14,028 bases of DNA, taken from Candidatus Iainarchaeum sp. Lineage in GTDB: Archaea > Iainarchaeota > Iainarchaeia > Iainarchaeales > JAFCCJ01. Shown piece after piece: positions 616 through 12,501 of the stretch; position 1 is the first letter of the stretch, and each line of letters opens with the position of its first letter. The position numbers and the translations under genes are program-made. The DNA lies in NCBI GenBank assembly GCA_043816965.1, contig JBDRHK010000090.1:1-14028 (forward strand). The letters run 5' to 3'. The notes beneath the pieces are model-generated. The model was not told the origin of the DNA, did not search any database, and saw only the letters and a list, made by a program, of their open reading frames with translations.

Positions 616-2274
616 ATGGACGGCACAAGGGAACATGTATTGGCTGAGGATATAGCAAAGGACTTCAAGGAGCATTCTGTAGCGGAATTTTTCAAGAAGA
701 ACAAGCAGATGCTGGGGCTTGTCGGAAAGATAAGGACACTTACCACCATAATTCACGAATACGTTACCAATTCATTGGATGCCTGTGAGGAGGCGAAGAT
801 CCTTCCTGATATTGAAATTACGCTTGATGAGCTTGGCAGCGAATATTATGAGCTTACTGTCAAGGACAATGGCCCAGGTTTAACTGAGAAAACTGTTGGC
901 AAGGCATTTGGGCAATTGCTAGCCGGAACCAAATTCCACAGGATGATGCAGAGCAGAGGGCAACAAGGAATAGGTGCAGCCGGCTGCACAATGTACAGCC
1001 AGATGACTACTGGAAAGTCTGTGAGAGTTATTACTGGAAGCGGAAATGGGAAGGCATTCAGTGTTGAGATTAACATCGACCCAAAGGCAAATCAGGCAAA
1101 ACTTTCCAATCTTGTTGAACTGAACAAGCCCTTCAAGGGCGTTGCAGTAAAGGCAAAATTCAAGGGAGTTAAATATGTAAATTCAGAGCAGGCCCCTTTG
1201 GAGTATCTCAGGAGGACTGCGATAGCAAACCCTCATGTGAGGATTAGTTTTAGGGACCCGGCAAAAGAAACAACTATTTTTGAGAGAACCACCAAAACCA
1301 TTCCATCAAAGCCGAGTGAGATGAAGCCCCATCCTAAAGGCGCGACTGTTGATGAAATTATTACTGTTTCAAAATCCACAGACGCGAGAAAGATTAATTC
1401 ATTCCTGAAAAACGAGTTCGACAGGATGGGGGATAAGGCTATTTCCGAGATTACGAAAAAGGTTTCGTTTGATTTAAACAAGGATCCCAAAAAACTCACA
1501 TGGGAGGAATCTGAGGAAATTGTAAAGGCATTTAAGACCATTGATTTCATTGCCCCGAGGACTGATGGCCTTAGGCCTATTGGGGAGGACAGGATTTCAA
1601 AATCCCTGAAAAGCATTGTAGAGCCGGAATTCCTTTCAGTAATAACAAGGAAACCAAACGTTTATTCCGGCGGGTTCCCTTTCCAGACAGAGGTTGCGAT
1701 AGCATATGGCGGGAAGGCAGGAAGGGGTTCAGGCATAAAAACTGATGAGGGTGTTGAGCAGAGGAAGATCGAGGTAATGAGATTTGCAAACAAGGTGCCT
1801 TTGCTCTTTGACGGTGGGGGCTGTGCTATAACAAAGGCTGTCCAGTCCATTGACTGGAAAAGGTATGGTGTCAAGGATATGGAAACCGCACCCATCACAA
1901 TATTTGTGAATTTGATTTCTGTTTATGTCCCTTACACAAGCGCTGGCAAGCAGGCGATTAGTGAGGAACCGGAGATAGTTGAGGACATAAGGCTTGCGCT
2001 AATGGATTCGGGGAGAAGGACAGGGAGATATATTATCGGCAAGAGAAAGCTTCAGGAGAAGAAGATGAAGAGGGAGACATTCCTAAAATACATTCCTGAG
2101 ATTGCAATGGCGCTTAACAAAATTACAAAAGAGAGTGAAGCGATGTTAAAGGAAAAACTCGAGAAACTGGTTATTGCAAAACTCAAACTGGAAGAAAAGG
2201 AAGAGGAAGACCTGCCCGAGGATATTGAGGAAGCGATTAGGGTTACAAAGCTTGATGGAAGGGGGAATAAGTAA
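616..2274 (+). CDS. top6B: DNA topoisomerase VI subunit B
   Basis: 552 aa with GHKL ATPase motifs HEYVTNSLDA, DNGPG and SRGQQGIG, plus transducer motifs RFANKVPLL and VPYTSAGKQ. AGGTGG SD at 606-611. Confidence 0.97.
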   Translation: MDGTREHVLAEDIAKDFKEHSVAEFFKKNKQMLGLVGKIRTLTTIIHEYVTNSLDACEEAKILPDIEITLDELGSEYYELTVKDNGPGLTEKTVGKAFGQLLAGTKFHRMMQSRGQQGIGAAGCTMYSQMTTGKSVRVITGSGNGKAFSVEINIDPKANQAKLSNLVELNKPFKGVAVKAKFKGVKYVNSEQAPLEYLRRTAIANPHVRISFRDPAKETTIFERTTKTIPSKPSEMKPHPKGATVDEIITVSKSTDARKINSFLKNEFDRMGDKAISEITKKVSFDLNKDPKKLTWEESEEIVKAFKTIDFIAPRTDGLRPIGEDRISKSLKSIVEPEFLSVITRKPNVYSGGFPFQTEVAIAYGGKAGRGSGIKTDEGVEQRKIEVMRFANKVPLLFDGGGCAITKAVQSIDWKRYGVKDMETAPITIFVNLISVYVPYTSAGKQAISEEPEIVEDIRLALMDSGRRTGRYIIGKRKLQEKKMKRETFLKYIPEIAMALNKITKESEAMLKEKLEKLVIAKLKLEEKEEEDLPEDIEEAIRVTKLDGRGNK

Positions 2275-4934
2275 TGGCAAAGAAAGCAAATAAGATTCCT
2301 GCAAAGAAGGGCAAGGCTGCAGAAAAAACAACTGCAAATAAAACACAGAAATCACGCACAGGCAAGAAGGACACCCCGAAAGAGATAGCAAAGCATATTG
2401 AGCTTATTGGGAGAGGGGTCGTTGCCGAAATAAAGAAGGGGCAGGATCCCAGCTTTGAGACCCAGATGAGGGGGCGGAGCAATGTTGAGTTTGATGCCAA
2501 GTCAAAGTTTCTTTCCCTCGGGGACAAGATGACTACCAGGAATTTCCTGAACATTGGCCATGCGAGGAAGTTTATGCAGACAATGATGGTTGCTGCAAAA
2601 ACAAATGATTATCTGAAAGAGAACAAGACAGCGGCAATCAGGGAAATTTACTATGAGCTTAAGCACACTTTAGGGAAAACCAAGGAAAATACCTTTGATG
2701 ACCAGACAGAATCAGATTCTGTGATAGTTGATTTGGAACATTCGGTTGATACAATCAGGGAGAAGCTTAATTTACATGCAAACCCAAAGGGAACCCTTTA
2801 CGGAGAGGTAACTCTCAGGGACAAGATGCACAATAACGACACATTCAACTGCGCCAAATTGGGAAGGGGCGGCTGGAGCGTAATGAGCAGGATTGAGCCT
2901 GAGGAAATCCAGATTGTTAAGGCCAATGCGGATTATGTGCTTATGATTGAGACAGAGGCAATGTATGAAAGGCTTGTCGAGGAGGGTTTCCCGAAAAAAA
3001 ACAGGGCGCTTCTTGTAAGCACTGGGGGGCAGGCGGCAAGGGGGACAAGGAGGCTTATCCAGAGACTTCATGCCGAGGCAAATCTTCCGGTTTATTGTTT
3101 TAGCGTGGATGGGGAAGAAACAGTGGTAATTGAGGAAGATGGCCTGATTAAAAATGTGCAGTTGAAGGAACTTATGAACGGCAAAGAAGTACTGAAAATT
3201 GATGGGGTCATAGAGAATGAACGGGCCACAATCAACGCAAAATCAATGTGTTTTGATGATAAAAAAACCAGCTTCGGCCAGATAAATCAGGTAATAAGGC
3301 ACCCTATTGTTGAAGACCTTTATGAGGTTAAAACAGATTTGGGTTACAGTGTAAAGGCAACAAGGTCACACAGCCTCATTGTTTACGATTCAAAAAAACA
3401 GGAATTTGTTGAGAAAACACCTTTAGAGGTTGACATGAACAATGATTTTGCGATTATCAGCCTTGACGTTCCAAACAATGAAAGCCTGAAAAGGATTGAT
3501 TTGGCAGAATTTGCAATCGACCATCCAAACGCCGAAATTGGAAAAGACGAAATAACCAATAAAAAAAATAAGGTTTCAATTCCGCGCTTTATTGAGAAAG
3601 AAAAACTAGGTGACTTTTGCAGGCTGCTCGGTTATTACGCAGCTGAGGGCAATCTAGATGATTATAGAATCGTTTTTAGTTTCAACAAAAACGAGGAAGA
3701 TTACATCCAAGATGTTTTTAATATATCGGAATCACTTTTTAATATTGAAGCAAAAGCACGCGATCCTCACAGTACAGAAACACAAGTGATGATTCATAAT
3801 ACTATTCTGTCCAAGATATTCAGAAACATTGCCTCAACAGGTTCGGCAAATAAAAGAGTCCCAAATATTGTTTTCAATGTACCGACAAAATCGAAGAAGG
3901 AATTTCTGACGGGATATTTTAGAGGCGATGGCAGGGTAGATTTCAAGAAAGAGAAAAGTTCGGTTGAACTATGGGCGAAAACAGTAAGTAAGAAACTGGC
4001 CTACGATTTGGTTCTGCTTATCTCGCAGATTGGCGCCAATGCAACAATTCAGTACCCGAAAGAAAGCAGCGCCGAGCATGAAGTTGAAATGACAACTGCA
4101 TCAGGGATTCAAAAAACTAAAATTATTGCAAGACTAACGCCTTACCTCATAAGCATTTCAAATAAAGAGGCATTGTTAAATCTTAAGGAGCTCGTGTCAG
4201 AACTCAATCCTCTCGCACTGAAACATATTGAAAATAGTTACATAAAAACACCAAAAATTGACAGCCTTCCAAGAGAATTTGTTGAAAGATTCAGGCAAAA
4301 TTTCAGGGAAGAATTTAGGGGGGATCTTGAGAAAAAATTGCCTCCCGCAACATTCCAGTGGCCCAGAATTTCTAAGAAAAAATTGCGTGAATTGCTCAAG
4401 GGCAAGGAATTAAGCAGAGAGCTACAAACTCTGAAGGAGTTTGCCAACAATAAAACAACTTTTGCAAGAATTAGCGGAATAGAAAAAGTGGAGCCGAAGG
4501 ACAAATACGTTTATGATATTGAAATGGCAGGAACCCACAGGTTCTTTGCAAACTTTATGTGTGTCCACAACACAGACGGTGACCCTTATGGATGGTATAT
4601 TTATAGTGTTGTAAAGCAGGGGAGTATGGCACTTGCCGCACATTCTGAATTTATGGCTGTTCCAAGCGCAAAATTCATCGGCATGACTTTGGATGATGTT
4701 GAAACCTATGGCCTGGAAAATGTCACTGAGAAAATGAAGGAAGGGGACATTAAAAGGGCAAAGGAAATGATTGAATATCCCTGGTTCCAGAATGAGCCCT
4801 GGCAGAGGCAGCTGAAAAAAGCCCTTGTCCAGAAAATCAGGATAGAGCAGCAGGCCTTGGCTAATAAATCACTGGACTTTGTTGCAAAGGAATATCTCCC
4901 TAAAAAGATTAAGGCAAAGGACTTCCTACCCTAA
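2274..4934 (+). CDS. top6A: DNA topoisomerase VI subunit A precursor containing an intein (886 aa precursor, 396 aa after splicing)
   Basis: Catalytic Tyr motif IREIYY, TFDDQTESD, TOPRIM glutamate region IETEAMYERL, TGGQAARGTRR and C-terminal RIEQQAL. Removing the insert restores LPVYCF|TDGDPYGWYI. Overlaps the top6B stop by 1 nt (TAATG). Confidence 0.96.
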   Translation: MAKKANKIPAKKGKAAEKTTANKTQKSRTGKKDTPKEIAKHIELIGRGVVAEIKKGQDPSFETQMRGRSNVEFDAKSKFLSLGDKMTTRNFLNIGHARKFMQTMMVAAKTNDYLKENKTAAIREIYYELKHTLGKTKENTFDDQTESDSVIVDLEHSVDTIREKLNLHANPKGTLYGEVTLRDKMHNNDTFNCAKLGRGGWSVMSRIEPEEIQIVKANADYVLMIETEAMYERLVEEGFPKKNRALLVSTGGQAARGTRRLIQRLHAEANLPVYCFSVDGEETVVIEEDGLIKNVQLKELMNGKEVLKIDGVIENERATINAKSMCFDDKKTSFGQINQVIRHPIVEDLYEVKTDLGYSVKATRSHSLIVYDSKKQEFVEKTPLEVDMNNDFAIISLDVPNNESLKRIDLAEFAIDHPNAEIGKDEITNKKNKVSIPRFIEKEKLGDFCRLLGYYAAEGNLDDYRIVFSFNKNEEDYIQDVFNISESLFNIEAKARDPHSTETQVMIHNTILSKIFRNIASTGSANKRVPNIVFNVPTKSKKEFLTGYFRGDGRVDFKKEKSSVELWAKTVSKKLAYDLVLLISQIGANATIQYPKESSAEHEVEMTTASGIQKTKIIARLTPYLISISNKEALLNLKELVSELNPLALKHIENSYIKTPKIDSLPREFVERFRQNFREEFRGDLEKKLPPATFQWPRISKKKLRELLKGKELSRELQTLKEFANNKTTFARISGIEKVEPKDKYVYDIEMAGTHRFFANFMCVHNTDGDPYGWYIYSVVKQGSMALAAHSEFMAVPSAKFIGMTLDDVETYGLENVTEKMKEGDIKRAKEMIEYPWFQNEPWQRQLKKALVQKIRIEQQALANKSLDFVAKEYLPKKIKAKDFLP
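3102..4571 (+). mobile_element. Intein with LAGLIDADG (DOD) homing endonuclease in Top6A, Ser277-Asn766, +1 residue Thr
   Basis: Block A SVDGEETVVI, block B KATRSHSL (TxxH), LAGLIDADG motifs LLGYYAAEG and FLTGYFRGDG, block F YVYDIEMAGTHRFFAN and block G VHN|T. In-frame insert of 1470 nt. Confidence 0.95.
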
Positions 4935-7954: not shown

Positions 7955-8603
7955 CCAATGAAATTATTTTTTCTACATCAATCTCTTCCAATGATTCAAC
8001 CATCAAATCAGCCCTTGAAAAATCCTGCCCCTTCGAGAATTTTCCGGGAACTGCGATTGCCTTCATTTCCGCATTTTTTGCTGACTCAACCCCTAATTGG
8101 GTGTCTTCCACAGCAACACATTCATTAGGAGCAATTCCTAATTTCTCCGCAGTTTTCAGGTAAACCGCAGGGGAGGGCTTATGTTCAGTGACATCATGAA
8201 TGTCCACCATTACGGAAAATTTATCTGTTAGGTTGAATTTATCGGTAATTAAGTGTATGTTCTTCTTTGAGTTGGCTGATGCAATTGCCAGGATTATTCC
8301 CATTTCCTCAAGGGAATTGATTAATTCTTTCACGCCTGGATTTAGGGGAAGCTCCCCAGCAATCTTTTTTGTCGCCGCAATATGTGTATTATTATGGAAC
8401 TCATCATAATCCCCATCGAGCCCGTATTTTTCTTTTAGTATTTGAAATTTATTGCTGAAGGTTTTTCCAACAATGTTTTCATAATCCTCTTCAGTTAATT
8501 CAATATTCCTTTTTCCCATAAATTCCGCAATGCTCCCATGCCACATAGAATCGGTGTCTGCAATAACCCCGTCGAAATCGAAAATCACCGCCTTAATTGC
8601 CAT
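7947..8603 (-). CDS. HAD-superfamily hydrolase subfamily IA (CbbY/beta-phosphoglucomutase-like phosphatase)
   Basis: Motif I IFDFDGVIAD, motif II ASAN, motif III KPSP and motif IV VEDT..GVESA. Start placed at ATG 8603 (MAIKAVIFDFDG) rather than 8627. Confidence 0.9.
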   Translation of the reverse strand: MAIKAVIFDFDGVIADTDSMWHGSIAEFMGKRNIELTEEDYENIVGKTFSNKFQILKEKYGLDGDYDEFHNNTHIAATKKIAGELPLNPGVKELINSLEEMGIILAIASANSKKNIHLITDKFNLTDKFSVMVDIHDVTEHKPSPAVYLKTAEKLGIAPNECVAVEDTQLGVESAKNAEMKAIAVPGKFSKGQDFSRADLMVESLEEIDVEKIISLGE

Positions 8604-9498
8604 AAACCATCCCTCTCTTTTCCTCAAGCAGTTCTTTAGGGTAGAAAATCAGCGGCCTGAAGACAGGCAGTTCTGCACCAATCCTTTTCAGTTCCTTTCT
8701 CAATTTGGTTTCCCCTGAAACCAGTGCCTGAACATTTATATCTGGCTTTTCAACCAGCTGTCGCAATTTTTGCAGCGGCGTGAAAAGAAAACTCCTGAAA
8801 GAGTTCCATCTCACCAATTTTTCAACTTCCTTCTCAATTTCTTTGGATTCTTTCTCAACAACCGGGAAGATGTTGCAGCCCCTGCGCATCATTAAAAAAG
8901 CCGCGACCAAATCATCCTTTTTACCTGTAAAAAGCATAGCGACATTTCCCTCAACCCCGAGTGGCAAACCTTTTGGGCCGGGAATCTCCTCCAAATAGAT
9001 GAACATATCCTTTCCCCTAATTTCAACATTAACTTCCTTGTCTGGATTGGAAAGATTTACTTTCAGGCCGGGAAATTCCCCCATAATTTCCGAACCCAAT
9101 TTTTCCCCCAATTCCTGATTGGTCAACTCCTTATTGTCAACAACCCTTGGCCTTACTGCAAAACTATCACCCTCTTTCAAAAATCCTTTGCAGACCTCGG
9201 TCCCCTTTTCCAGAATTTTTTTCAGGTTAACGCCGTGGACTGATTCTGCCTTTGCAAAGGAATGGATTCCAAAAACAAGGGGTAAAAGGGCGTGAATTTC
9301 ATCCAGATTTTTCATTTTTTCAGGATAGAGGTAAAGCCTTCCCCCTTTCTTAACTATTCTGCTTCCGGCAAGCTTGTTTGCGCGGAAAACAGATTTCATG
9401 TTTGAGACTAATTTGTCCATGAAATATTTCCTCACAAAATGGCTTTTCAGGGAGATTTCCGAGGAAGTCTTGATCAGGAGGCAATTTGGGGAAAGCAT
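8593..9498 (-). CDS. ThiI-like THUMP-domain protein with a degenerate PP-loop
   Basis: N-terminal LLIKTSSEISLKS, THUMP segments SFAVRPR and LKVNLSNPDKEVNVEIR, and GPKGLPLGVEG. The SGGxDS motif reads TGKKDD, followed by VAAFLMMRRG. The second Met (9498) fits the ThiI N-terminus; 9516 is the alternative start. Confidence 0.85.
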   Translation of the reverse strand: MLSPNCLLIKTSSEISLKSHFVRKYFMDKLVSNMKSVFRANKLAGSRIVKKGGRLYLYPEKMKNLDEIHALLPLVFGIHSFAKAESVHGVNLKKILEKGTEVCKGFLKEGDSFAVRPRVVDNKELTNQELGEKLGSEIMGEFPGLKVNLSNPDKEVNVEIRGKDMFIYLEEIPGPKGLPLGVEGNVAMLFTGKKDDLVAAFLMMRRGCNIFPVVEKESKEIEKEVEKLVRWNSFRSFLFTPLQKLRQLVEKPDINVQALVSGETKLRKELKRIGAELPVFRPLIFYPKELLEEKRGMVYGN

Positions 9499-9504
9499 AA
9501 ACAA

Positions 9505-9529
9505 TTTTAAAGGCATAAGGGTTAAAATA
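9505..9529. promoter_or_regulatory. Candidate divergent archaeal TATA boxes
   Basis: TTTTAAAG (+, 9505-9512) lies about 30 nt upstream of the leader ATG at 9542. TATTTTAA (-, 9529-9522) lies about 24 nt upstream of the thiI-like ATG at 9498. Assigned on motif and spacing only. Confidence 0.4.
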
Positions 9530-9541
9530 TTACTGAGTTAA

Positions 9542-9604
9542 ATGAGTGGTCAAAACAACAAAAAGAAATGCACTTGCAACTGCTGTTGCTGCTGTTGTTG
9601 TTAG
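9542..9604 (+). CDS. Poly-cysteine leader peptide MSGQNNKKKCTCNCCCCCCC (putative attenuator of cysK-cysE)
   Basis: Reads ATG AGT GGT CAA AAC AAC AAA AAG AAA TGC ACT TGC AAC TGC TGT TGC TGC TGT TGT TGT TAG. Contains 9 Cys codons, 7 of them consecutive, mixing TGC and TGT. Ends 65 nt upstream of cysK. Confidence 0.88.
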   Translation: MSGQNNKKKCTCNCCCCCCC

Positions 9605-9665
9605 AGACCTCTCTCAAAAACTCTTTTAACCGGTTTTTTGGGGGATTACAAAACTAGAGAGATGG
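9603..9665 (+). promoter_or_regulatory. Putative attenuator region with mutually exclusive pairings
   Basis: TCTCTCAAAAA (9610-9620) can pair with TTTTTGGGGGA (9635-9645). CCTCTCTC (9608-9615) can instead pair with GAGAGATGG (9657-9665), which occupies the cysK RBS position. T6 tract at 9634-9639. Confidence 0.6.
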
Positions 9666-9669
9666 CTAT

Positions 9670-10584
9670 ATGAAGTTCAGAAACATCCTGGAAACTGTGG
9701 GAAACACCCCTATGGTGAGATTGAACAGGATTTCCGGAAAAGGTGCTGCGGAGATTTACGCTAAACTCGAGATGTTCAATCCAGGGGGAAGTGTAAAGGA
9801 CAGGATAGGCATAGGCATGATTGAGGATGCCGAGAGAAATGGCCTGCTTGGGAAAGAATCGGTGATTGTGGAGCCCACATCAGGAAATACGGGAATCGGC
9901 CTGGCAATTGCCGCTTCGGTGAAAGGCTACAGGGTTATTTTTGTGCTGCCGGAAAATTTCAGCATAGAGCGGCAGAAAATATTGAGGGTGTTTGGCGCCG
10001 AACTTGTGCTTACTCCCAAAGAAACAGGAATGGCCGGCGCCGTGGAAAAGGCGGAAGAATTGGTTAAATCTAACAGGAATTATTTCATGCCACAGCAGTT
10101 CAGGAATCCGGCAAATCCAGAAATCCACAGGAAAACCACAGCTAAAGAGATTTTGAAAGATCTCCCTGATTTGGATGTGTTTGTTGCCGGCATCGGGACT
10201 GGGGGAACCCTTACAGGCGTGGGAGAGGTCCTTAAGTCAAAAAATCCAGGAATAAAGGTAGTTGCTGTTGAGCCTGCAGACTCGCCGGTTCTTTCAGGCG
10301 GAAAACCAGGACAACACAAGATACAGGGGATTGGTGCCGGGTTTGTGCCAGAGGTAATGAACCGGGAAATTGTTGACGAAATAATTCAGGTAGGGAATCT
10401 GGAGGCGATAGAAACTGCAAAGCGGCTGGCGAAGGAAGAGGGAATTTTTGCGGGGATTAGCAGCGGGGCGGCGGCATTTGCGGCATTAAAAATTGCGGGA
10501 AAAATAGGGGCAGATAAAAAAATTGTAGTTATTTTGCCCGACACAGGTGAAAGATATTTATCGACAGAACTCGGGGAGGTATAA
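9670..10584 (+). CDS. cysK: Cysteine synthase A (O-acetylserine sulfhydrylase)
   Basis: PLP lysine motif NPGGSVKDRIG, EPTSGNTGIG, QQF.NPAN, GIGTGGT, HKIQGIGAGFVP and PDTGERYLST. Confidence 0.97.
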   Translation: MKFRNILETVGNTPMVRLNRISGKGAAEIYAKLEMFNPGGSVKDRIGIGMIEDAERNGLLGKESVIVEPTSGNTGIGLAIAASVKGYRVIFVLPENFSIERQKILRVFGAELVLTPKETGMAGAVEKAEELVKSNRNYFMPQQFRNPANPEIHRKTTAKEILKDLPDLDVFVAGIGTGGTLTGVGEVLKSKNPGIKVVAVEPADSPVLSGGKPGQHKIQGIGAGFVPEVMNREIVDEIIQVGNLEAIETAKRLAKEEGIFAGISSGAAAFAALKIAGKIGADKKIVVILPDTGERYLSTELGEV

Positions 10585-10586
10585 AA

Positions 10587-11165
10587 ATGGGTTTGATAAA
10601 AACAATCAAGGCAGATATAAAAACATTCAGGGAGAATGACCCTGCGGTTAAAAGCACTCTGGAAATTTTGCTGTGTTACCACACATTCCATGCAATTCTC
10701 ATACACCGCCTTAACCATCCGCTATACAATCTCAATATTCCCATACTCCCCAGGTTTATTTCAATGGTGAACAGGTTTTTCACAGGTGTGGAAATACATC
10801 CCGGGGCAAAGATAGGAGATGGATTTTTCATAGACCATGGTACGGGAACAGTGATAGGAGAAACTGCAAATATAGGAAAGAGCTGTGTTATGTACCAGCA
10901 CGTCACTTTGGGGGGGACGGGAAAGCATACTGGAAAAAGGCATCCTACATTAGGGGAAAATGTTCTTGTGGGGGTTGGCTCAACAATTTTGGGGCCGGTT
11001 AACATTGGGGACAATGCAAAAATCGGGGCAAACACATTCATAATAATGAAGGATGTTCCTGCAAACGCGACAGTTGTTGGGGTGCCTGGAAAAATCGTGA
11101 AAATTAACGGGAGGAAAATAGTGAAGGAACTGAAGAAAACAGTCCTTCCAAATGGTTTTAAATGA
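10587..11165 (+). CDS. cysE: Serine O-acetyltransferase (short EpsC/Bacillus-like form)
   Basis: NDPA, TGVEIHPGAKIG, FIDHGTGTVIGET, VTLGGTGK..GKRHPTLG, hexapeptide repeats and VVGVPGKIV. GGAGGT SD at 10575-10580. Confidence 0.96.
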   Translation: MGLIKTIKADIKTFRENDPAVKSTLEILLCYHTFHAILIHRLNHPLYNLNIPILPRFISMVNRFFTGVEIHPGAKIGDGFFIDHGTGTVIGETANIGKSCVMYQHVTLGGTGKHTGKRHPTLGENVLVGVGSTILGPVNIGDNAKIGANTFIIMKDVPANATVVGVPGKIVKINGRKIVKELKKTVLPNGFK

Positions 11166-11173
11166 TTTCATAG

Positions 11174-11187
11174 GAAAATCTTTAAGT
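11174..11187 (+). promoter_or_regulatory. Candidate BRE/TATA promoter (GAAAATCTTTAAGT) for the tRNA-Cys transcript
   Basis: Purine-rich BRE-like GAAAA followed by TTTAAG (11181-11186). This would put transcription initiation near 11205-11210. Confidence 0.55.
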
Positions 11188-11197
11188 CTCTAGCGAG

Positions 11198-11283
11198 GGC
11201 GAATGGTCGGTTTCGTAGGTTCCCGAAGGGGACTAGGTGAATTCCGTGGGAATTCGCCGTCGTGTCAACTGAGATAGCAGTTG
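11198..11283 (+). ncRNA. Hairpin-rich element upstream of tRNA-Cys (unknown function)
   Basis: Three consecutive stems: TAGGTTCCC-GAA-GGGGACTA (11216-11235), GGTGAATTCC-GTG-GGAATTCGCC (11236-11258) and CAACTG-AGATAG-CAGTTG (11266-11283). An alternative pairing GGCGAAT (11198-11204) with ATTCGCC (11252-11258) is possible. Confidence 0.45.
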
Positions 11284-11284
11284 T

Positions 11285-11356
11285 GCTGAGGTGGCAGAGA
11301 GGCTATGCATCCGCCTGCAGAGCGGAAGATCGGGGGTTCAAATCCCTCCCTCAGCT
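11285..11356 (+). tRNA. tRNA-Cys (anticodon GCA), no intron, CCA not encoded
   Basis: Acceptor stem GCTGAGG/CCTCAGC, D arm GCA-GAGAGGCTA-TGC, anticodon arm TCCGC-CT GCA GA-GCGGA (GCA at 11317-11319) and T arm GGGGG-TTCAAAT-CCCTC. Discriminator U73 is typical of tRNA-Cys. Confidence 0.97.
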
Positions 11357-11358
11357 TT

Positions 11359-12501
11359 ATGAGAATAATGTGGATGTCAGATTCACCCAATGTTTGTTCT
11401 GGTTACGGGACAGTTACGAGGAATCTCCTTGATGGGTTAACGAAAAATACCGGGCATGAATGGCTTGCCCTGGGCTGGCAGTATGTGGGGCAGCCCACGA
11501 GGTGGGGGAATTTCATGATGCTTCCCAGGGGGCAGAGGGCATTTGGGGAGGATATTCTCCCTTATCATTTGCAGCAGTTCAAGCCTGATGTTCTTATTGT
11601 TCTTGCGGACCTTTTTATGGTGAATTATCTCGCTGCAATGGATTTCAAAGATACTAAACTAGTGAATTACTTTCCCGCAGATGGTTTTCCACTTCCCACA
11701 GGAGGGGCAAATGTTCTTATGAAAAATACCCAAGCTGTTGCAATGTCGAAATTCGGGAAAGAGGTTGCAAAGAAAGAGGGGATTGAGACTGAGGTGATAT
11801 ACCATGGTGTTGATTCAAATGTTTTTTCACCTGTAAAGGATAAGGAACAGCTGAAAAGAAACTTGGGGCTTGAGGGGAAATTTGTAATTGGTTTTGCAGG
11901 AAGGAATCAGGAAAGGAAAAAGATTTCGCGTTTGTTGAAGGCATGGAAAATTTTCTCAACTGGGAAGAAGGACGTCCATCTTATCCTGCACACCGACCCC
12001 TTTGACCCTGAGGGGCCGGCATTGCTTGACAGGAAAGGGCCAGGAGGGCAGAAACTGGAGGGGTTGATCTCAGTTTTGGGCGCTGAAAATGTTTCCTTTA
12101 CCCATATGCCCTCTTTTCAGTTAGGGCTTCCCCTGGACCATCTTAATAGGATTTACAATCTCTTCGACATACATGTTTCAGCAACTTTGGGCGAGGGTTT
12201 TGGCCTTACAACTCTTGAGTCAATGGCTTGCGGAGTTCCGAATATTCTCCCGGATAATACAACCGCAAAGGAATTGATTGGAGGGAGGGGGGAACTTGCA
12301 AAAATACAGGCATGGGTTACTGCCAATAACAATGTTGAAATGGGGCTGGTTGATGTTGAGGATATGGCGGCAAAGATGAATTACCTGTATGAAAACGAGG
12401 ATGTGAGAGGGAAGTATTCAAAAAATGGCAGGAAATTTGCCGAGGAAATGGACTGGAAAAATATTGTGCCGCAGTGGGAGAAATTACTTGCAAAACTCTA
12501 A
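11359..12501 (+). CDS. Glycosyltransferase family 4 (GT-B fold), 380 aa
   Basis: N-terminus MRIMWMSDSP..SGYG, VIYHGVD, GRNQERK and the EX7E motif EGFGLTTLESMACGVP. Start moved from 11305, which lies inside the tRNA, to ATG 11359. Confidence 0.92.
   Translation: MRIMWMSDSPNVCSGYGTVTRNLLDGLTKNTGHEWLALGWQYVGQPTRWGNFMMLPRGQRAFGEDILPYHLQQFKPDVLIVLADLFMVNYLAAMDFKDTKLVNYFPADGFPLPTGGANVLMKNTQAVAMSKFGKEVAKKEGIETEVIYHGVDSNVFSPVKDKEQLKRNLGLEGKFVIGFAGRNQERKKISRLLKAWKIFSTGKKDVHLILHTDPFDPEGPALLDRKGPGGQKLEGLISVLGAENVSFTHMPSFQLGLPLDHLNRIYNLFDIHVSATLGEGFGLTTLESMACGVPNILPDNTTAKELIGGRGELAKIQAWVTANNNVEMGLVDVEDMAAKMNYLYENEDVRGKYSKNGRKFAEEMDWKNIVPQWEKLLAKL

What the first reader, a model, noticed from the sequence alone, without database searches (positions are those of the whole stretch)
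9542..9604. Poly-cysteine leader peptide upstream of cysK-cysE: candidate cysteine-sensing attenuator in an archaeon
Seen: a 20-codon ORF, too short for the ORF track, encodes MSGQNNKKKCTCNCCCCCCC. Nine of its last 11 codons are Cys, with TGC and TGT mixed, which argues for selection on the amino acid over simple trinucleotide slippage. It lies directly before the two cysteine biosynthesis genes. Established: runs of cognate codons in leader peptides mark ribosome-mediated attenuation (trp, his and thr leaders in bacteria; poly-Cys sORFs in mycobacteria and other Actinobacteria). Such control is barely documented in archaea, and I am not aware of a described archaeal Cys leader. Inference: ribosome stalling when Cys-tRNA is scarce turns cysK-cysE on.
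Basis: partly seen in the sequence, partly recalled or inferred. Interest (0 to 1): 0.93.

Follow-up and report, generated by a model that had tools for sequence, protein, structure and literature searches.

The report
Poly-cysteine leader gene before archaeal cysK
A 20-codon mini-gene ending in seven cysteine codons sits in front of the cysteine-synthesis genes of a tiny archaeon and of many related archaea, and most likely lets the ribosome gauge cysteine supply, a kind of control so far published only for bacteria.

Summary
Window 9542-9604 (+) reads MSGQNNKKKCTCNCCCCCCC and lies 65 nt before cysK-cysE. It is the most Cys-dense of 121,508 stop-to-stop segments in the genome.

It is conserved. 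Cys-tail sORFs precede cysK in 10 of 30 loci of the window's phylum, across 7 families. They also precede it in 14 of 28 public loci of a second DPANN order. Among 160 mostly bacterial loci with the closest cysK, only 3 have one, and the single clear case is the one named archaeon. Chance predicts about 0.04 per locus.

A TATA box starts 29-32 nt before the sORF ATG in 17-19 of 23 loci, against 1.75% of all ATGs, so the sORFs look leaderless. A tRNA-Cys gene lies beside cysK on the same strand in 9 of 59 loci, including this window at 11285-11356.

Best reading: a cysteinyl-tRNA-sensing leader peptide. The regulated step is unresolved: termination at a U-tract or hairpin, or ribosome-binding-site access.

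My searches found no archaeal case in print. Earlier unchecked notes of this scan report similar leaders in Asgard archaea. No experiment exists.

The parts
9506..9511 (+). TATA-like hexamer TTTAAA, 36 nt before the sORF ATG. It predicts a transcript start near 9535/9536.
   Evidence: It is conserved in G001. In 17-19 of 23 related sORFs the hexamer starts 29-32 nt before the ATG. Here it lies 4-7 nt further upstream, which implies a leader of about 6-7 nt without a Shine-Dalgarno sequence.
9535..9666 (+). Stretch covered without a mismatch by one 151-nt contig of a metatranscriptome library (run X3, record 17).
   Evidence: table 8. Contigs cannot prove a start, an end or a strand, and DNA can be present in an RNA library. 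The contig bridges the sORF, the T-run and the spacer up to 4 nt before the cysK ATG.
9542..9604 (+). Leader sORF of 20 codons plus TAG, reading MSGQNNKKKCTCNCCCCCCC. The Cys run lies flush against the stop codon.
9548..9609 (+). Predicted hairpin H1. GGTC and AACAACAA (9548-9561) pair with TTGTTGTT and GACC (9595-9609), so the 5' part of the sORF pairs with the last Cys codons and the stop.
   Evidence: It is in the MFE fold of both G000 and G001. The whole-leader z-score is only about -1.0. An ACAAC-type 5' arm recurs in relatives in three different codon phases. The duplex test against shuffles gave 16 of 300 shuffles as good or better (0.053) for this locus.
9610..9645 (+). Predicted hairpin H2. 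TCTCTCAAAAA (9610-9620) pairs with TTTTTGGGGGA (9635-9645). Its 5' arm starts 6 nt after the stop codon.
   Evidence: Both arms are identical in G001 while the loop differs. With only two sequences there is no covariation to count.
9634..9639 (+). T6 run, a candidate archaeal oligo-T termination signal between the sORF and cysK.
   Evidence: Runs of 5-7 T lie in the spacer in 7 of 10 loci of the phylum (L001, L002, L010, L020, L022, L007, L037). I did not test this against chance in these AT-rich leaders.
9657..9665 (+). Shine-Dalgarno-like GAGAGATGG before cysK (GAGAGGTGA in G001). It is complementary to the CCTCTCTC at 9608-9615.
   Evidence: The alternative pairing is not the MFE structure.
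9670..10584 (+). cysK, cysteine synthase A (O-acetylserine sulfhydrylase).
   Evidence: PALP; TIGR01139 above its cut-off.
10587..11165 (+). cysE, serine O-acetyltransferase.
   Evidence: (TIGR01172 above its cut-off).
11285..11356 (+). tRNA-Cys (GCA), 119 nt after cysE on the same strand.
   Evidence: ARAGORN on L001; Rfam tRNA, 63.4 bits. It is the only tRNA-Cys ARAGORN finds in the assembly, which yields just 19 tRNAs and is 86% complete. The same linkage is seen in 8 further loci. A conserved TATA-like element directly after cysE may give the tRNA its own promoter.

Best explanation
The sORF is a translated leader peptide at the 5' end of the cysK-cysE transcript. A tRNA-Cys gene follows on the same strand and may belong to the unit.

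Transcription starts at or a few bases before the ATG, from an archaeal TATA promoter, so the ribosome loads on a leaderless or near-leaderless 5' end. When charged tRNA-Cys is scarce, the ribosome stalls on the seven consecutive Cys codons that abut the stop codon. There it covers the 5' half of the sORF and the first 12-15 nt after the stop.

That occupancy prevents the downstream 'off' state. The off state could be the hairpin that uses the sORF's 5' arm or the post-stop CU-rich arm, or the access of the termination machinery to naked nascent RNA at the T-run 30-37 nt after the stop. Expression of cysK-cysE then rises. When Cys-tRNA is plentiful, the ribosome finishes and leaves, and the off state forms.

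Shown here:
- the ORF exists, is unique in the genome and is conserved at the codon level;
- the promoter geometry;
- the link with cysK and with tRNA-Cys.

Inferred:
- translation of the sORF;
- stalling on the Cys codons;
- the direction of control;
- the regulated step.

My split, given that it is a Cys-sensing leader: premature termination or read-through about 50%, access to the cysK ribosome-binding site about 30%, other (RNA stability, reinitiation) about 20%.
For: (1) Uniqueness and position. It is the top Cys-dense segment of 121,508 in the genome and lies 65 nt before cysK-cysE, both named by equivalog models.

(2) Codon-level conservation. Of the 6 base changes against G001, 5 are in third positions, including TGC to TGT. 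The intergenic leader is 93% identical, while CysK is 70% identical at the protein level.

(3) Recurrence.
- 10 of 30 cysK loci of the phylum, in 7 families, have a Cys-tail sORF.
- 14 of 28 public loci of a second DPANN order have one.
- Background is 0.036-0.044 per 510-nt window for at least 3 Cys in the last 10 residues. For at least 4 Cys it is 0 in 196 kb of the same loci. Seven of the 10 phylum sORFs have at least 4.
- The peptides share only the C-terminal Cys run flush with the stop. Lengths range from 7 to 35 aa.

(4) Specificity.
- Of 160 loci with the closest, mostly bacterial, cysK, 3 pass the criterion. Only the named archaeon has a clear poly-Cys sORF.
- Of 18 other (TGY)4-stop matches in the 30 fetched loci of the phylum, none has an in-frame ATG with a TATA box.

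(5) Promoter. The TATA hexamer starts at -32 to -29 from the sORF ATG in 17 of 23 loci, or 19 of 23 after moving two starts to an ATG 6 nt downstream. The same holds for 117 of 6,695 of all ATGs and 97 of 1,881 in AT-rich contexts.

(6) tRNA-Cys lies on the cysK strand in 9 of 59 loci. That is 9 of the 19 tRNA genes found there. In L221 and L224 it sits between the sORF and cysK.

(7) The genome has a class I CysRS, so tRNA-Cys charging reports free cysteine.

(8) In family f21 the sORF and a small winged-helix gene that overlaps the cysK start occur in different genera at the same position.

(9) An RNA-library contig covers 9535-9666 exactly.

(10) Precedents. Mycobacterial leaderless poly-Cys sORFs are shown to be Cys-responsive (10.1101/834739, abstract and passages). 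Archaeal ribosomes pause with Cys codons in the A site in Haloferax (PMC7261190, passage).
Against: - There are no expression, Ribo-seq or reporter data.
- The leader does not fold better than shuffles: z is -1.00 in G000 and -0.96 in G001, and 30-31 of 200 shuffles fold as well.
- Folding with a masked 'stalled ribosome' gave no consistent gain in accessibility of the cysK ribosome-binding site in 11 leaders. For the window it fell from 0.53 to 0.35.
- H2 is not a classical terminator, because the T-run is inside its 3' arm.
- The 5'-arm complementarity test is weak overall: mean z is -0.89 over 24 leaders, and 5 of 24 reach 0.02 or less.
- 20 of 30 loci in the phylum and 14 of 28 in the other order lack such an sORF, so the device is not universal.
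- In the window the TATA hexamer lies at -36, not -30. A second TATA-like element at 9522-9531 would start transcription inside the sORF.
- AT-rich TATA-like sequence in the spacer (9621-9629, also in G001) could be a separate cysK promoter.
- Related genomes are not independent, and I defined the sORF criterion myself.
Confidence: 0.7

Rival explanations
1. Same sensor, but working as in mycobacteria. Regulation would be purely translational: an RNA structure hides the cysK Shine-Dalgarno sequence, and a ribosome stalled on the Cys run opens it. This is a variant of the best explanation, listed because the regulated step differs.
For: CCTCTCTC at 9608-9615, just after the stop, is complementary to the SD-like GAGAGATGG at 9657-9665. 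The match is 8 bp in G001. CU-rich boxes follow the stop in L010 and L097, and G-rich SDs lie downstream. The mycobacterial precedent works this way (10.1101/834739).
Against: The MFE and ensemble folds pair the CU-rich box with the T6-G5 stretch, not with the SD. Masked-ribosome folding gives no consistent opening of the SD in 11 leaders. In L221 and L224 the sORF is followed by a tRNA gene, which is not translated, so control there cannot be translational.
Confidence: 0.2
2. The sORF encodes a functional Cys-rich micro-peptide, for example a metal or thiol binder or a sulfur carrier, that is merely co-expressed with cysK.
For: The ORF looks translated (ATG at the predicted 5' end) and is conserved next to sulfur genes.
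Against: Only the terminal Cys run is conserved. Lengths run from 7 aa (MQFTCCC) to 35 aa, and the N-terminal parts are unrelated. Conservation in the 5' part lies at the nucleotide level, with ACAAC in three codon phases. The link to tRNA-Cys fits decoding, not peptide chemistry.
Confidence: 0.08
3. It is an independent short transcription unit, or promoter-proximal noise, with no cis effect on cysK. In this reading cysK has its own promoter in the spacer and the T6 run simply ends the sORF transcript.
For: A T6 run lies at 9634-9639. AT-rich TATA-like sequence at 9621-9629 is kept in a different form in G001.
Against: One RNA-library contig bridges the T-run from 9535 to 9666. In several relatives the spacer is only 37-55 nt and ends in the SD of the next ORF, which leaves little room for a promoter. 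This reading does not explain why a Cys run recurs only before cysK or tRNA-Cys.
Confidence: 0.07
4. It is a non-coding UG-rich RNA or DNA element, or a trinucleotide-repeat accident, and the ORF is incidental.
For: The tract is a (TGY)n repeat. (TGY)4-TRR matches occur in 132 of 215 genomes of the phylum.
Against: In the 30 other fetched loci, 0 of 18 (TGY)4-stop matches have an in-frame ATG with a TATA box. Upstream of cysK the tract is always framed by an ATG at TATA distance and an immediate stop. TGC and TGT are mixed, and synonymous change is seen.
Confidence: 0.04

Closest known systems
Mycobacterial polycysteine leaderless short ORFs (Ms5788A and other loci), Canestrari et al., bioRxiv 10.1101/834739 (abstract and passages read)
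   Same: A leaderless or near-leaderless sORF is the first cistron. A run of Cys codons lies at the 3' end of the sORF. It sits upstream of cysteine-metabolism genes. The proposed sensor is ribosome stalling when Cys-tRNA is low.
   Different: Different domain of life and promoter type (TATA box at about -30). The leaders are AT-rich. In mycobacteria the Cys tract itself pairs with the SD of the next gene and control is translational. Here folding shows no such pairing, T-runs lie in the spacer, and a tRNA-Cys gene belongs to the locus. No sequence homology is expected or seen.
Predicted Cys leader peptides of Actinobacteria (cys operon of Mycobacterium and Propionibacterium, cbs of Bifidobacterium), PMC1262725 (passages read)
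   Same: A run of Cys codons lies near the stop codon of a short ORF upstream of cysteine genes, and no obvious terminator hairpin is present.
   Different: Bacterial. A Rho-dependent mechanism was proposed there. Archaea have no Rho; the nearest analogue is the factor aCPSF1/FttA (recalled, not from a call).
Classical leader-peptide transcription attenuators (trpL, hisL, thrL of enterobacteria; recalled textbook knowledge, summarised)
   Same: Cognate codons in a short leader ORF couple ribosome speed to expression of the biosynthetic operon.
   Different: No pair of mutually exclusive terminator and antiterminator hairpins could be identified. Archaeal termination relies on oligo-T tracts. 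The regulatory codons abut the stop codon.
Earlier notes of this scan: poly-Cys leader mini-genes before cysK in Asgard archaea (e1-5590286, e1-5672522, AI notes, unchecked)
   Same: An sORF of about 22 codons ends in Cys runs before an archaeal cysK, and the notes interpret it the same way.
   Different: Other phyla and other DNA, with no sequence overlap with this window.

Membership tests
Ribosome-mediated leader-peptide attenuators (functional class) | A short ORF upstream of, and on the same transcript as, the regulated biosynthetic genes. | tested here: inconclusive
   Position and strand are met. One RNA-library contig bridges the sORF and the spacer up to 4 nt before cysK. Contigs cannot prove a single transcript, and none joins into cysK.
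Ribosome-mediated leader-peptide attenuators (functional class) | Enrichment of codons for the pathway's end product. | tested here: met
   9 Cys in the last 11 codons. It is the genome-wide maximum.
Ribosome-mediated leader-peptide attenuators (functional class) | Conservation of the regulatory codons, in frame, among relatives. | tested here: met
   G001; 10 of 30 loci; 14 of 28 loci. Background is about 0.04 per locus.
Ribosome-mediated leader-peptide attenuators (functional class) | Signals for translation of the leader ORF. | tested here: met
   The ATG lies at TATA-box distance in 17-19 of 23 loci, the geometry of leaderless mRNA. In the window the implied leader is about 6-7 nt. Translation itself was not observed.
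Ribosome-mediated leader-peptide attenuators (functional class) | A terminator, or an SD-sequestering structure, whose formation depends on ribosome position. | tested here: inconclusive
   Candidates exist: H1, H2 and the T6 run in the window, a perfect hairpin plus T7 in L007, and a hairpin that encloses the Cys codons in L215. There is no significant folding z-score, no covariation and no consistent switch.
Ribosome-mediated leader-peptide attenuators (functional class) | Expression responds to supply of the amino acid through the leader codons. | not testable with these tools
   Needs a reporter, Ribo-seq or Term-seq experiment.
Mycobacterial poly-Cys leaderless sORF attenuators | The transcript starts at the start codon (leaderless). 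| tested here: inconclusive
   Met by TATA geometry in most relatives. In the window the TATA at -36 and the RNA contig start at 9535 suggest a 7-nt leader. No 5'-end mapping exists.
Mycobacterial poly-Cys leaderless sORF attenuators | The Cys tract base-pairs with the Shine-Dalgarno region of the downstream gene. | tested here: not met
   In the predicted folds the Cys tract pairs with the 5' part of its own sORF, and the SD is not sequestered by it.
Mycobacterial poly-Cys leaderless sORF attenuators | The downstream genes act in cysteine or sulfur metabolism. | tested here: met
   cysK and cysE pass their equivalog models. tRNA-Cys is adjacent.

The most novel reading that the evidence does not exclude
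This would be the first leader-peptide (ribosome-mediated) control system of Archaea. It is spread through at least two DPANN groups and, by earlier unchecked notes of this scan, Asgard archaea. It gates not only cysK-cysE but also the tRNA-Cys gene.

Because archaea lack Rho and hairpin-dependent terminators, the system would work by a new route. A ribosome parked on a Cys run that abuts the stop codon would shield the nascent RNA, or block a hairpin, just behind an RNA polymerase paused on oligo-T tracts.

It may be one of two Cys-codon sensors in these archaea. The second would be a +1 frameshift at a single UGU codon, needed to make CysK in seven related loci.
Probability: 0.4. Interest if true: 0.92.

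Novelty: new variant of a known kind. Interest (0 to 1): 0.8.

Why it matters
None of my searches returned a paper describing leader-peptide attenuation in Archaea. I recall none outside the searched library either. It is often treated as a bacterial speciality that depends on bacterial terminators.

This is a conserved, easily recognised element: a TATA box, an ATG, a few codons, a Cys run and a stop, directly before cysK or tRNA-Cys. It recurs in dozens of DPANN genomes, so the question becomes directly testable. The leader is about 130 nt long and could be fused to a reporter in a tractable archaeon or run in a cell-free archaeal system.

It also bears on three wider points:
- how coupled transcription and translation is used for regulation in archaea;
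- how archaeal termination at oligo-T tracts can be modulated;
- how genome-reduced DPANN archaea, thought to depend on hosts for most metabolites, regulate one of the few amino-acid pathways they keep.

The link to a tRNA-Cys gene suggests that tRNA supply itself may be under leader-peptide control. I found no report of that in any domain, though I ran no search aimed at it.

Tried and rejected
- Rfam, permissive search of 9000-10000: only chance-level matches (E 0.5-8, far below gathering scores). The whole window at gathering scores gave only the tRNA.
- Sigma-70 promoter and terminator scan: not relevant to archaea. The one terminator-like hit, inside the sORF, is at chance level (1 found, 0.4 expected).
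- Thermodynamic support for a structured leader: not significant.
- Masked-ribosome folding for an SD switch: no consistent effect.
- 5'-arm to Cys-tract complementarity against shuffles: only a weak trend.
- Fixed distance from the stop codon to the T-run, measured on six leaders: it varies from about 21 to 55 nt (sequences). I dropped the idea of a fixed ribosome-to-polymerase geometry.
- A regulon of poly-Cys sORFs elsewhere in the phylum: the (TGY)4-TRR pattern is common (132 of 215 genomes). In the 30 fetched loci, 0 of 18 true-stop matches form an ATG-plus-TATA sORF. The roughly 270 other matches were not examined.
- In G000 no second poly-Cys sORF exists.
- Sequencing runs: only 3 runs held part of the stretch, and all are kept as contigs. 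Parts of 9000-11200 without cover in the RNA run say nothing. The 16 letters of the RNA contig that run on unlike the window after 9666 remain unexplained.
- A tRNA-like stretch between the sORF and cysK in L219 was confirmed neither by ARAGORN nor by Rfam.
- Earlier-findings look-up by sequence found nothing.
- The class and phylum searches added only 19 genomes and one locus to the order search.

Full report
**1. Observation**

One search shows an ATG at 9542 and a TAG at 9602-9604. The 20 codons read MSGQNNKKKCTCNCCCCCCC. Nine of the last 11 codons are Cys, 5 TGC and 4 TGT. The stop-to-stop segment is exactly this ORF.

The surrounding genes are:
- 8593-9516 (-): a divergent ThiI/THUMP-like gene;
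- 9670-10584 (+): cysK (TIGR01139, 446.9 bits, cut-off 350.95);
- 10587-11165 (+): cysE (TIGR01172, 222.4 bits, cut-off 210.65);
- 11285-11356 (+): a tRNA-Cys(GCA) gene.

Topoisomerase VI A (with an intein) and B show that the organism is an archaeon. The assembly is 1.34 Mb in 109 contigs, 86% complete and 42% G+C. Earlier unchecked notes of this scan call it a DPANN archaeon of the Iainarchaeota. I did not test that name.

**2. More than chance**

In a six-frame scan of the whole assembly, this is the only one of 121,508 stop-to-stop segments with 7 Cys in a window of 8. The next best have 5.

I counted sORFs of 60 aa or less with at least 3 Cys in the last 10 residues. There are 189 per 2.69 million strand-bases, or 0.036 per 510-nt window. 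With at least 4 Cys there are 18, and with at least 5 Cys in the last 8 residues there is 1, this one.

**3. Conservation**

The same-genus genome G001 has CysK 70% identical. It keeps the sORF as MSGQDNKKKCTCKCCCCCCC. It differs at six bases, five of them in third codon positions and four synonymous, including one TGC to TGT. The 240-nt leader region is 93% identical.

The order of the window holds 196 species genomes. Of these, 32 have a cysK match at E of 1e-30 or better, and 30 loci were fetched. Ten of the 30, the window's own locus included, carry a Cys-tail sORF within 450 nt upstream on the cysK strand. They come from 7 families:
- L001 (the window) and L002 (G001);
- L020: MKTNNARPCNCCCCCYC;
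- L022: MNKVKAEKKCNCCCCH;
- L010: MVFLNRILCKCANCCCCC;
- L007: MKQQNLFRLNSVDLVKTLFCCCFC;
- L003: MKQQNMNLKKSSKTILIEISCCC;
- L037: MTRQQLINSISCCCC;
- L030 and L032: two weaker ones, ending CFYFCFC and CYCFC.

Seven of the ten have at least 4 Cys in the last 10 residues. The rest of the same 30 loci (196 kb) holds none at that threshold. The class and the phylum hold only 215 genomes and added one cysK locus without such an sORF.

**4. Outside the phylum**

The proteins closest to the window's CysK are not those of its own order, which are at most 51% identical apart from G001. They are bacterial, from Dehalococcoidia, Planctomycetia, Omnitrophota and others, at 55-66% identity. cysK was therefore probably acquired from bacteria.

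Of the 160 loci fetched with this query, 3 pass the sORF criterion. Two are marginal, which is below the roughly 6-7 expected at 0.04 per locus. The third is the only named archaeon in the list, a MAG labelled Candidatus Woesearchaeota (L097). It has MTKTTCCCDCCCC 75 nt before cysK.

I then searched 401 genomes of that MAG's order. Seventy-seven have cysK, and 30 loci were fetched. Two come from unpublished genomes (G425, G347).

Of the 28 public loci, 14 carry a Cys-tail sORF. Examples are MSSTTTLYCCTCCC, MTRHYLFGCCFCCC, MQFTCCC, MKKATKKQKCECCCCCKCDCC, MTIKQCCCC, MKQTIDCCC, MTNKTSCCC and MLKAVCCC. Two of the 14 without one had under 140 nt of upstream DNA.

In almost all cases the Cys run abuts the stop codon. 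Nothing else in the peptides is conserved.

**5. Promoter geometry**

For 23 sORFs with enough upstream DNA, a hexamer [CT]TTA[AT]A starts 29-32 nt before the ATG in 17. The count becomes 19 if, in L222 and L228, the ATG 6 nt downstream of the first start is taken. That change was made after seeing the pattern. Among all ATGs of the same loci the figure is 117 of 6,695 (1.75%). Among ATGs with at least 70% A+T upstream it is 97 of 1,881 (5.2%).

An archaeal TATA box about 26-27 nt before the start site is textbook knowledge (recalled). It places the 5' end at the ATG, so these are leaderless sORFs.

The window and G001 are two of the four exceptions. Their hexamer (9506-9511) starts at -36 or -37, which predicts a start near 9535/9536 and a 6-7-nt leader without an SD.

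In one groundwater metatranscriptome library (run X3) a 151-nt contig lies on 9535-9666 without a mismatch. It bridges the sORF, the T-run and the spacer. The match of its start with the predicted start is suggestive only. Contigs cannot show ends, and DNA may be present in an RNA library.

**6. Link to tRNA-Cys**

ARAGORN on 59 cysK loci found 19 tRNA genes, and 9 of them are tRNA-Cys(GCA). All nine lie on the cysK strand.
- Downstream of cysK or cysE: L001 (the window), L002, L010, L020, L022 and L009.
- Between the sORF and cysK: L221 and L224, confirmed by Rfam.
- Upstream of cysK at a contig end: L217.

In G000 it is the only tRNA-Cys that ARAGORN finds. However, only 19 tRNAs are found in this incomplete assembly.

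A stretch of 33 nt after the cysE stop is identical in G000 and G001. It holds a TATA-like CTTTAAGT, so the tRNA may have its own promoter. The genome encodes a class I CysRS, so charged tRNA-Cys reports free cysteine.

**7. Alternatives at the same position**

In four loci of family f21 that lack the sORF (L009, L023, L026, L033), a 71-75-aa winged-helix (MarR-like) gene overlaps the cysK start. The f21 genus g54 (L020, L022) has the sORF instead. Two regulatory solutions at one position fit a regulatory role for the sORF.

**8. RNA features and mechanism**

The MFE folds of the G000 and G001 leaders share two hairpins.
- H1 pairs the 5' part of the sORF (GGTC and AACAACAA, 9548-9561) with the last Cys codons, the stop and GACC (9595-9609).
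- H2 pairs TCTCTCAAAAA (9610-9620) with TTTTTGGGGGA (9635-9645).

An ACAAC-type 5' arm that can pair with the UGU-rich tract recurs in L003, L007, L037 and L097, in three different codon phases. This argues for selection on the RNA. In the short leaders of the second order the 5' arm pairs with a conserved box after the stop codon (consensus near UUCUUUCAUUGUUUUAGUUUUAA). The Cys codons then lie in the loop, and U-tracts follow (L215, L219, L221). In L007 a perfect 12-bp hairpin that begins at the stop codon is followed by T7.

All of these are structures that a ribosome stalled on the terminal Cys codons would prevent.

The support is weak, though:
- leader folding z-scores are about -1.0;
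- the duplex test against shuffles gives a mean z of -0.89, with 5 of 24 at 0.02 or less;
- folding with a masked ribosome shows no consistent change in accessibility of the cysK ribosome-binding site;
- T-runs of 5-7 lie in 7 of 10 spacers of the phylum, but at varying distances, and I did not test them against chance.

I therefore commit to the sensor, ribosome stalling on Cys codons (0.7), and only tentatively to the regulated step. Read-through of a U-tract or hairpin terminator is favoured. The main reason is that in L221 and L224 the first downstream gene is a tRNA, which rules out purely translational control there.

**9. Comparison with what is known**

The closest system is the mycobacterial leaderless poly-Cys sORFs (10.1101/834739; abstract and passages read). 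They share leaderless architecture, a Cys run at the 3' end and cysteine genes downstream. Their defining structural feature, pairing of the Cys tract with the downstream SD, is not met here.

Cys leaders were predicted in Actinobacteria in 2005, without terminators (PMC1262725; passages read).

My searches found no archaeal leader-peptide attenuator and no archaeal Cys leader (search listings, plus passages of PMC7261190). PMC7261190 reports a weak pause with Cys codons in the A site of Haloferax ribosomes. Subscription journals are not in the searched library.

This scan's own earlier notes report poly-Cys leaders before cysK in Asgard archaea and Cys leaders in several bacterial phyla (unchecked). 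So the element is not new to the scan, but it appears to be new to print.

**10. Verdict**

This is a real, conserved, most likely translated poly-Cys leader in front of cysK-cysE(-tRNA-Cys). It is a new variant of a known kind of control, in a domain where that kind has not been described. All evidence is comparative.

Noticed in passing
L028, L031, L030, L032 (family f3), L003 (f8), L007 and L024 (f4): the 60-70 nt before the conserved GNTP motif of cysK: In seven related loci the SD-led ATG before cysK opens an 18-25-codon ORF in the 0 frame. It ends 0-6 codons after a single UGU codon. The CysK body continues in the +1 frame. There is no in-frame ATG or GTG before the GNTP motif, apart from a TTG 4 codons before it in L003 and L007 and a GTG in L024. 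The overlap always holds N-UGU-Y (CCC, GCC or CGG, then UGU), and the +1 codon is GUY (Val). Reading one four-letter step there gives an open 303-320-codon CysK in all seven. Amino-acid conservation switches from the 0 frame to the +1 frame at that point. This looks like a programmed +1 frameshift at a 'hungry' Cys codon, a second Cys-sensing device. A 2021 review lists only one demonstrated -1 frameshift in cellular archaea (PMC8211752, passages). Reinitiation at a non-canonical start is not excluded..
   Followed up: partly
L020 and L022 (genus g54), just before cysK: The ATG nearest to cysK is out of frame with it by -1 (or +2) and opens a 6-9-codon ORF through an A-rich run (A8 in L020, AUG AAA AAG in L022). 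In-frame TTG or GTG starts exist further upstream. The cause could be slippage, an assembly error at a homopolymer, or a TTG start. Not resolved.
   Followed up: no
window 11285-11356, and L002, L010, L020, L022, L009, L221, L224, L217: A tRNA-Cys(GCA) gene lies next to cysK or cysE on the same strand in 9 of 59 loci from two DPANN groups. In two of them it sits between the poly-Cys sORF and cysK.
   Followed up: yes
L009, L023, L026, L033 (family f21): A 71-75-aa winged-helix (MarR-like) gene overlaps the cysK start in loci that lack the poly-Cys sORF. An earlier frame translation suggests L004 has a similar ORF upstream.
   Followed up: partly
window 9670-10584: The window's CysK is closer to bacterial proteins (Dehalococcoidia, Planctomycetia, Omnitrophota; 55-66% identity) than to those of its own order (at most 51%, apart from the same genus at 70%). 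This suggests acquisition from bacteria. The bacterial loci lack the poly-Cys sORF.
   Followed up: partly
window 11166-11284: The 33 nt after the cysE stop are identical in G000 and G001 and hold a TATA-like CTTTAAGT. G000 then has an inverted repeat (GGCGAAT ... ATTCGCC, about 11199-11260), part of which (25 nt) is missing in G001.
   Followed up: no
window 11305-12501: The ATG listed for the GT4 glycosyltransferase ORF lies inside the tRNA-Cys gene, so the true start is probably one of the ATGs after 11350.
   Followed up: no
window 9662-9673: A three-codon mini-ORF (ATG GCT ATA TGA) overlaps the cysK start in an ATGA arrangement. It is not conserved in G001.
   Followed up: no
L215, L219, L221, L224, L227, L209, L199: the first 25 nt after the sORF stop: A conserved box follows the stop codon (near UUCUUUCAUUGUUUUAGUUUUAA). 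The window's CCUCUCUCA ... CUUUUAACC looks like a diverged form. The 3' box is invariant while the 5' partner varies, so it may be more than a pairing partner.
   Followed up: partly
window 2274-4934: The topoisomerase VI subunit A gene carries an intein with a LAGLIDADG endonuclease domain.
   Followed up: no
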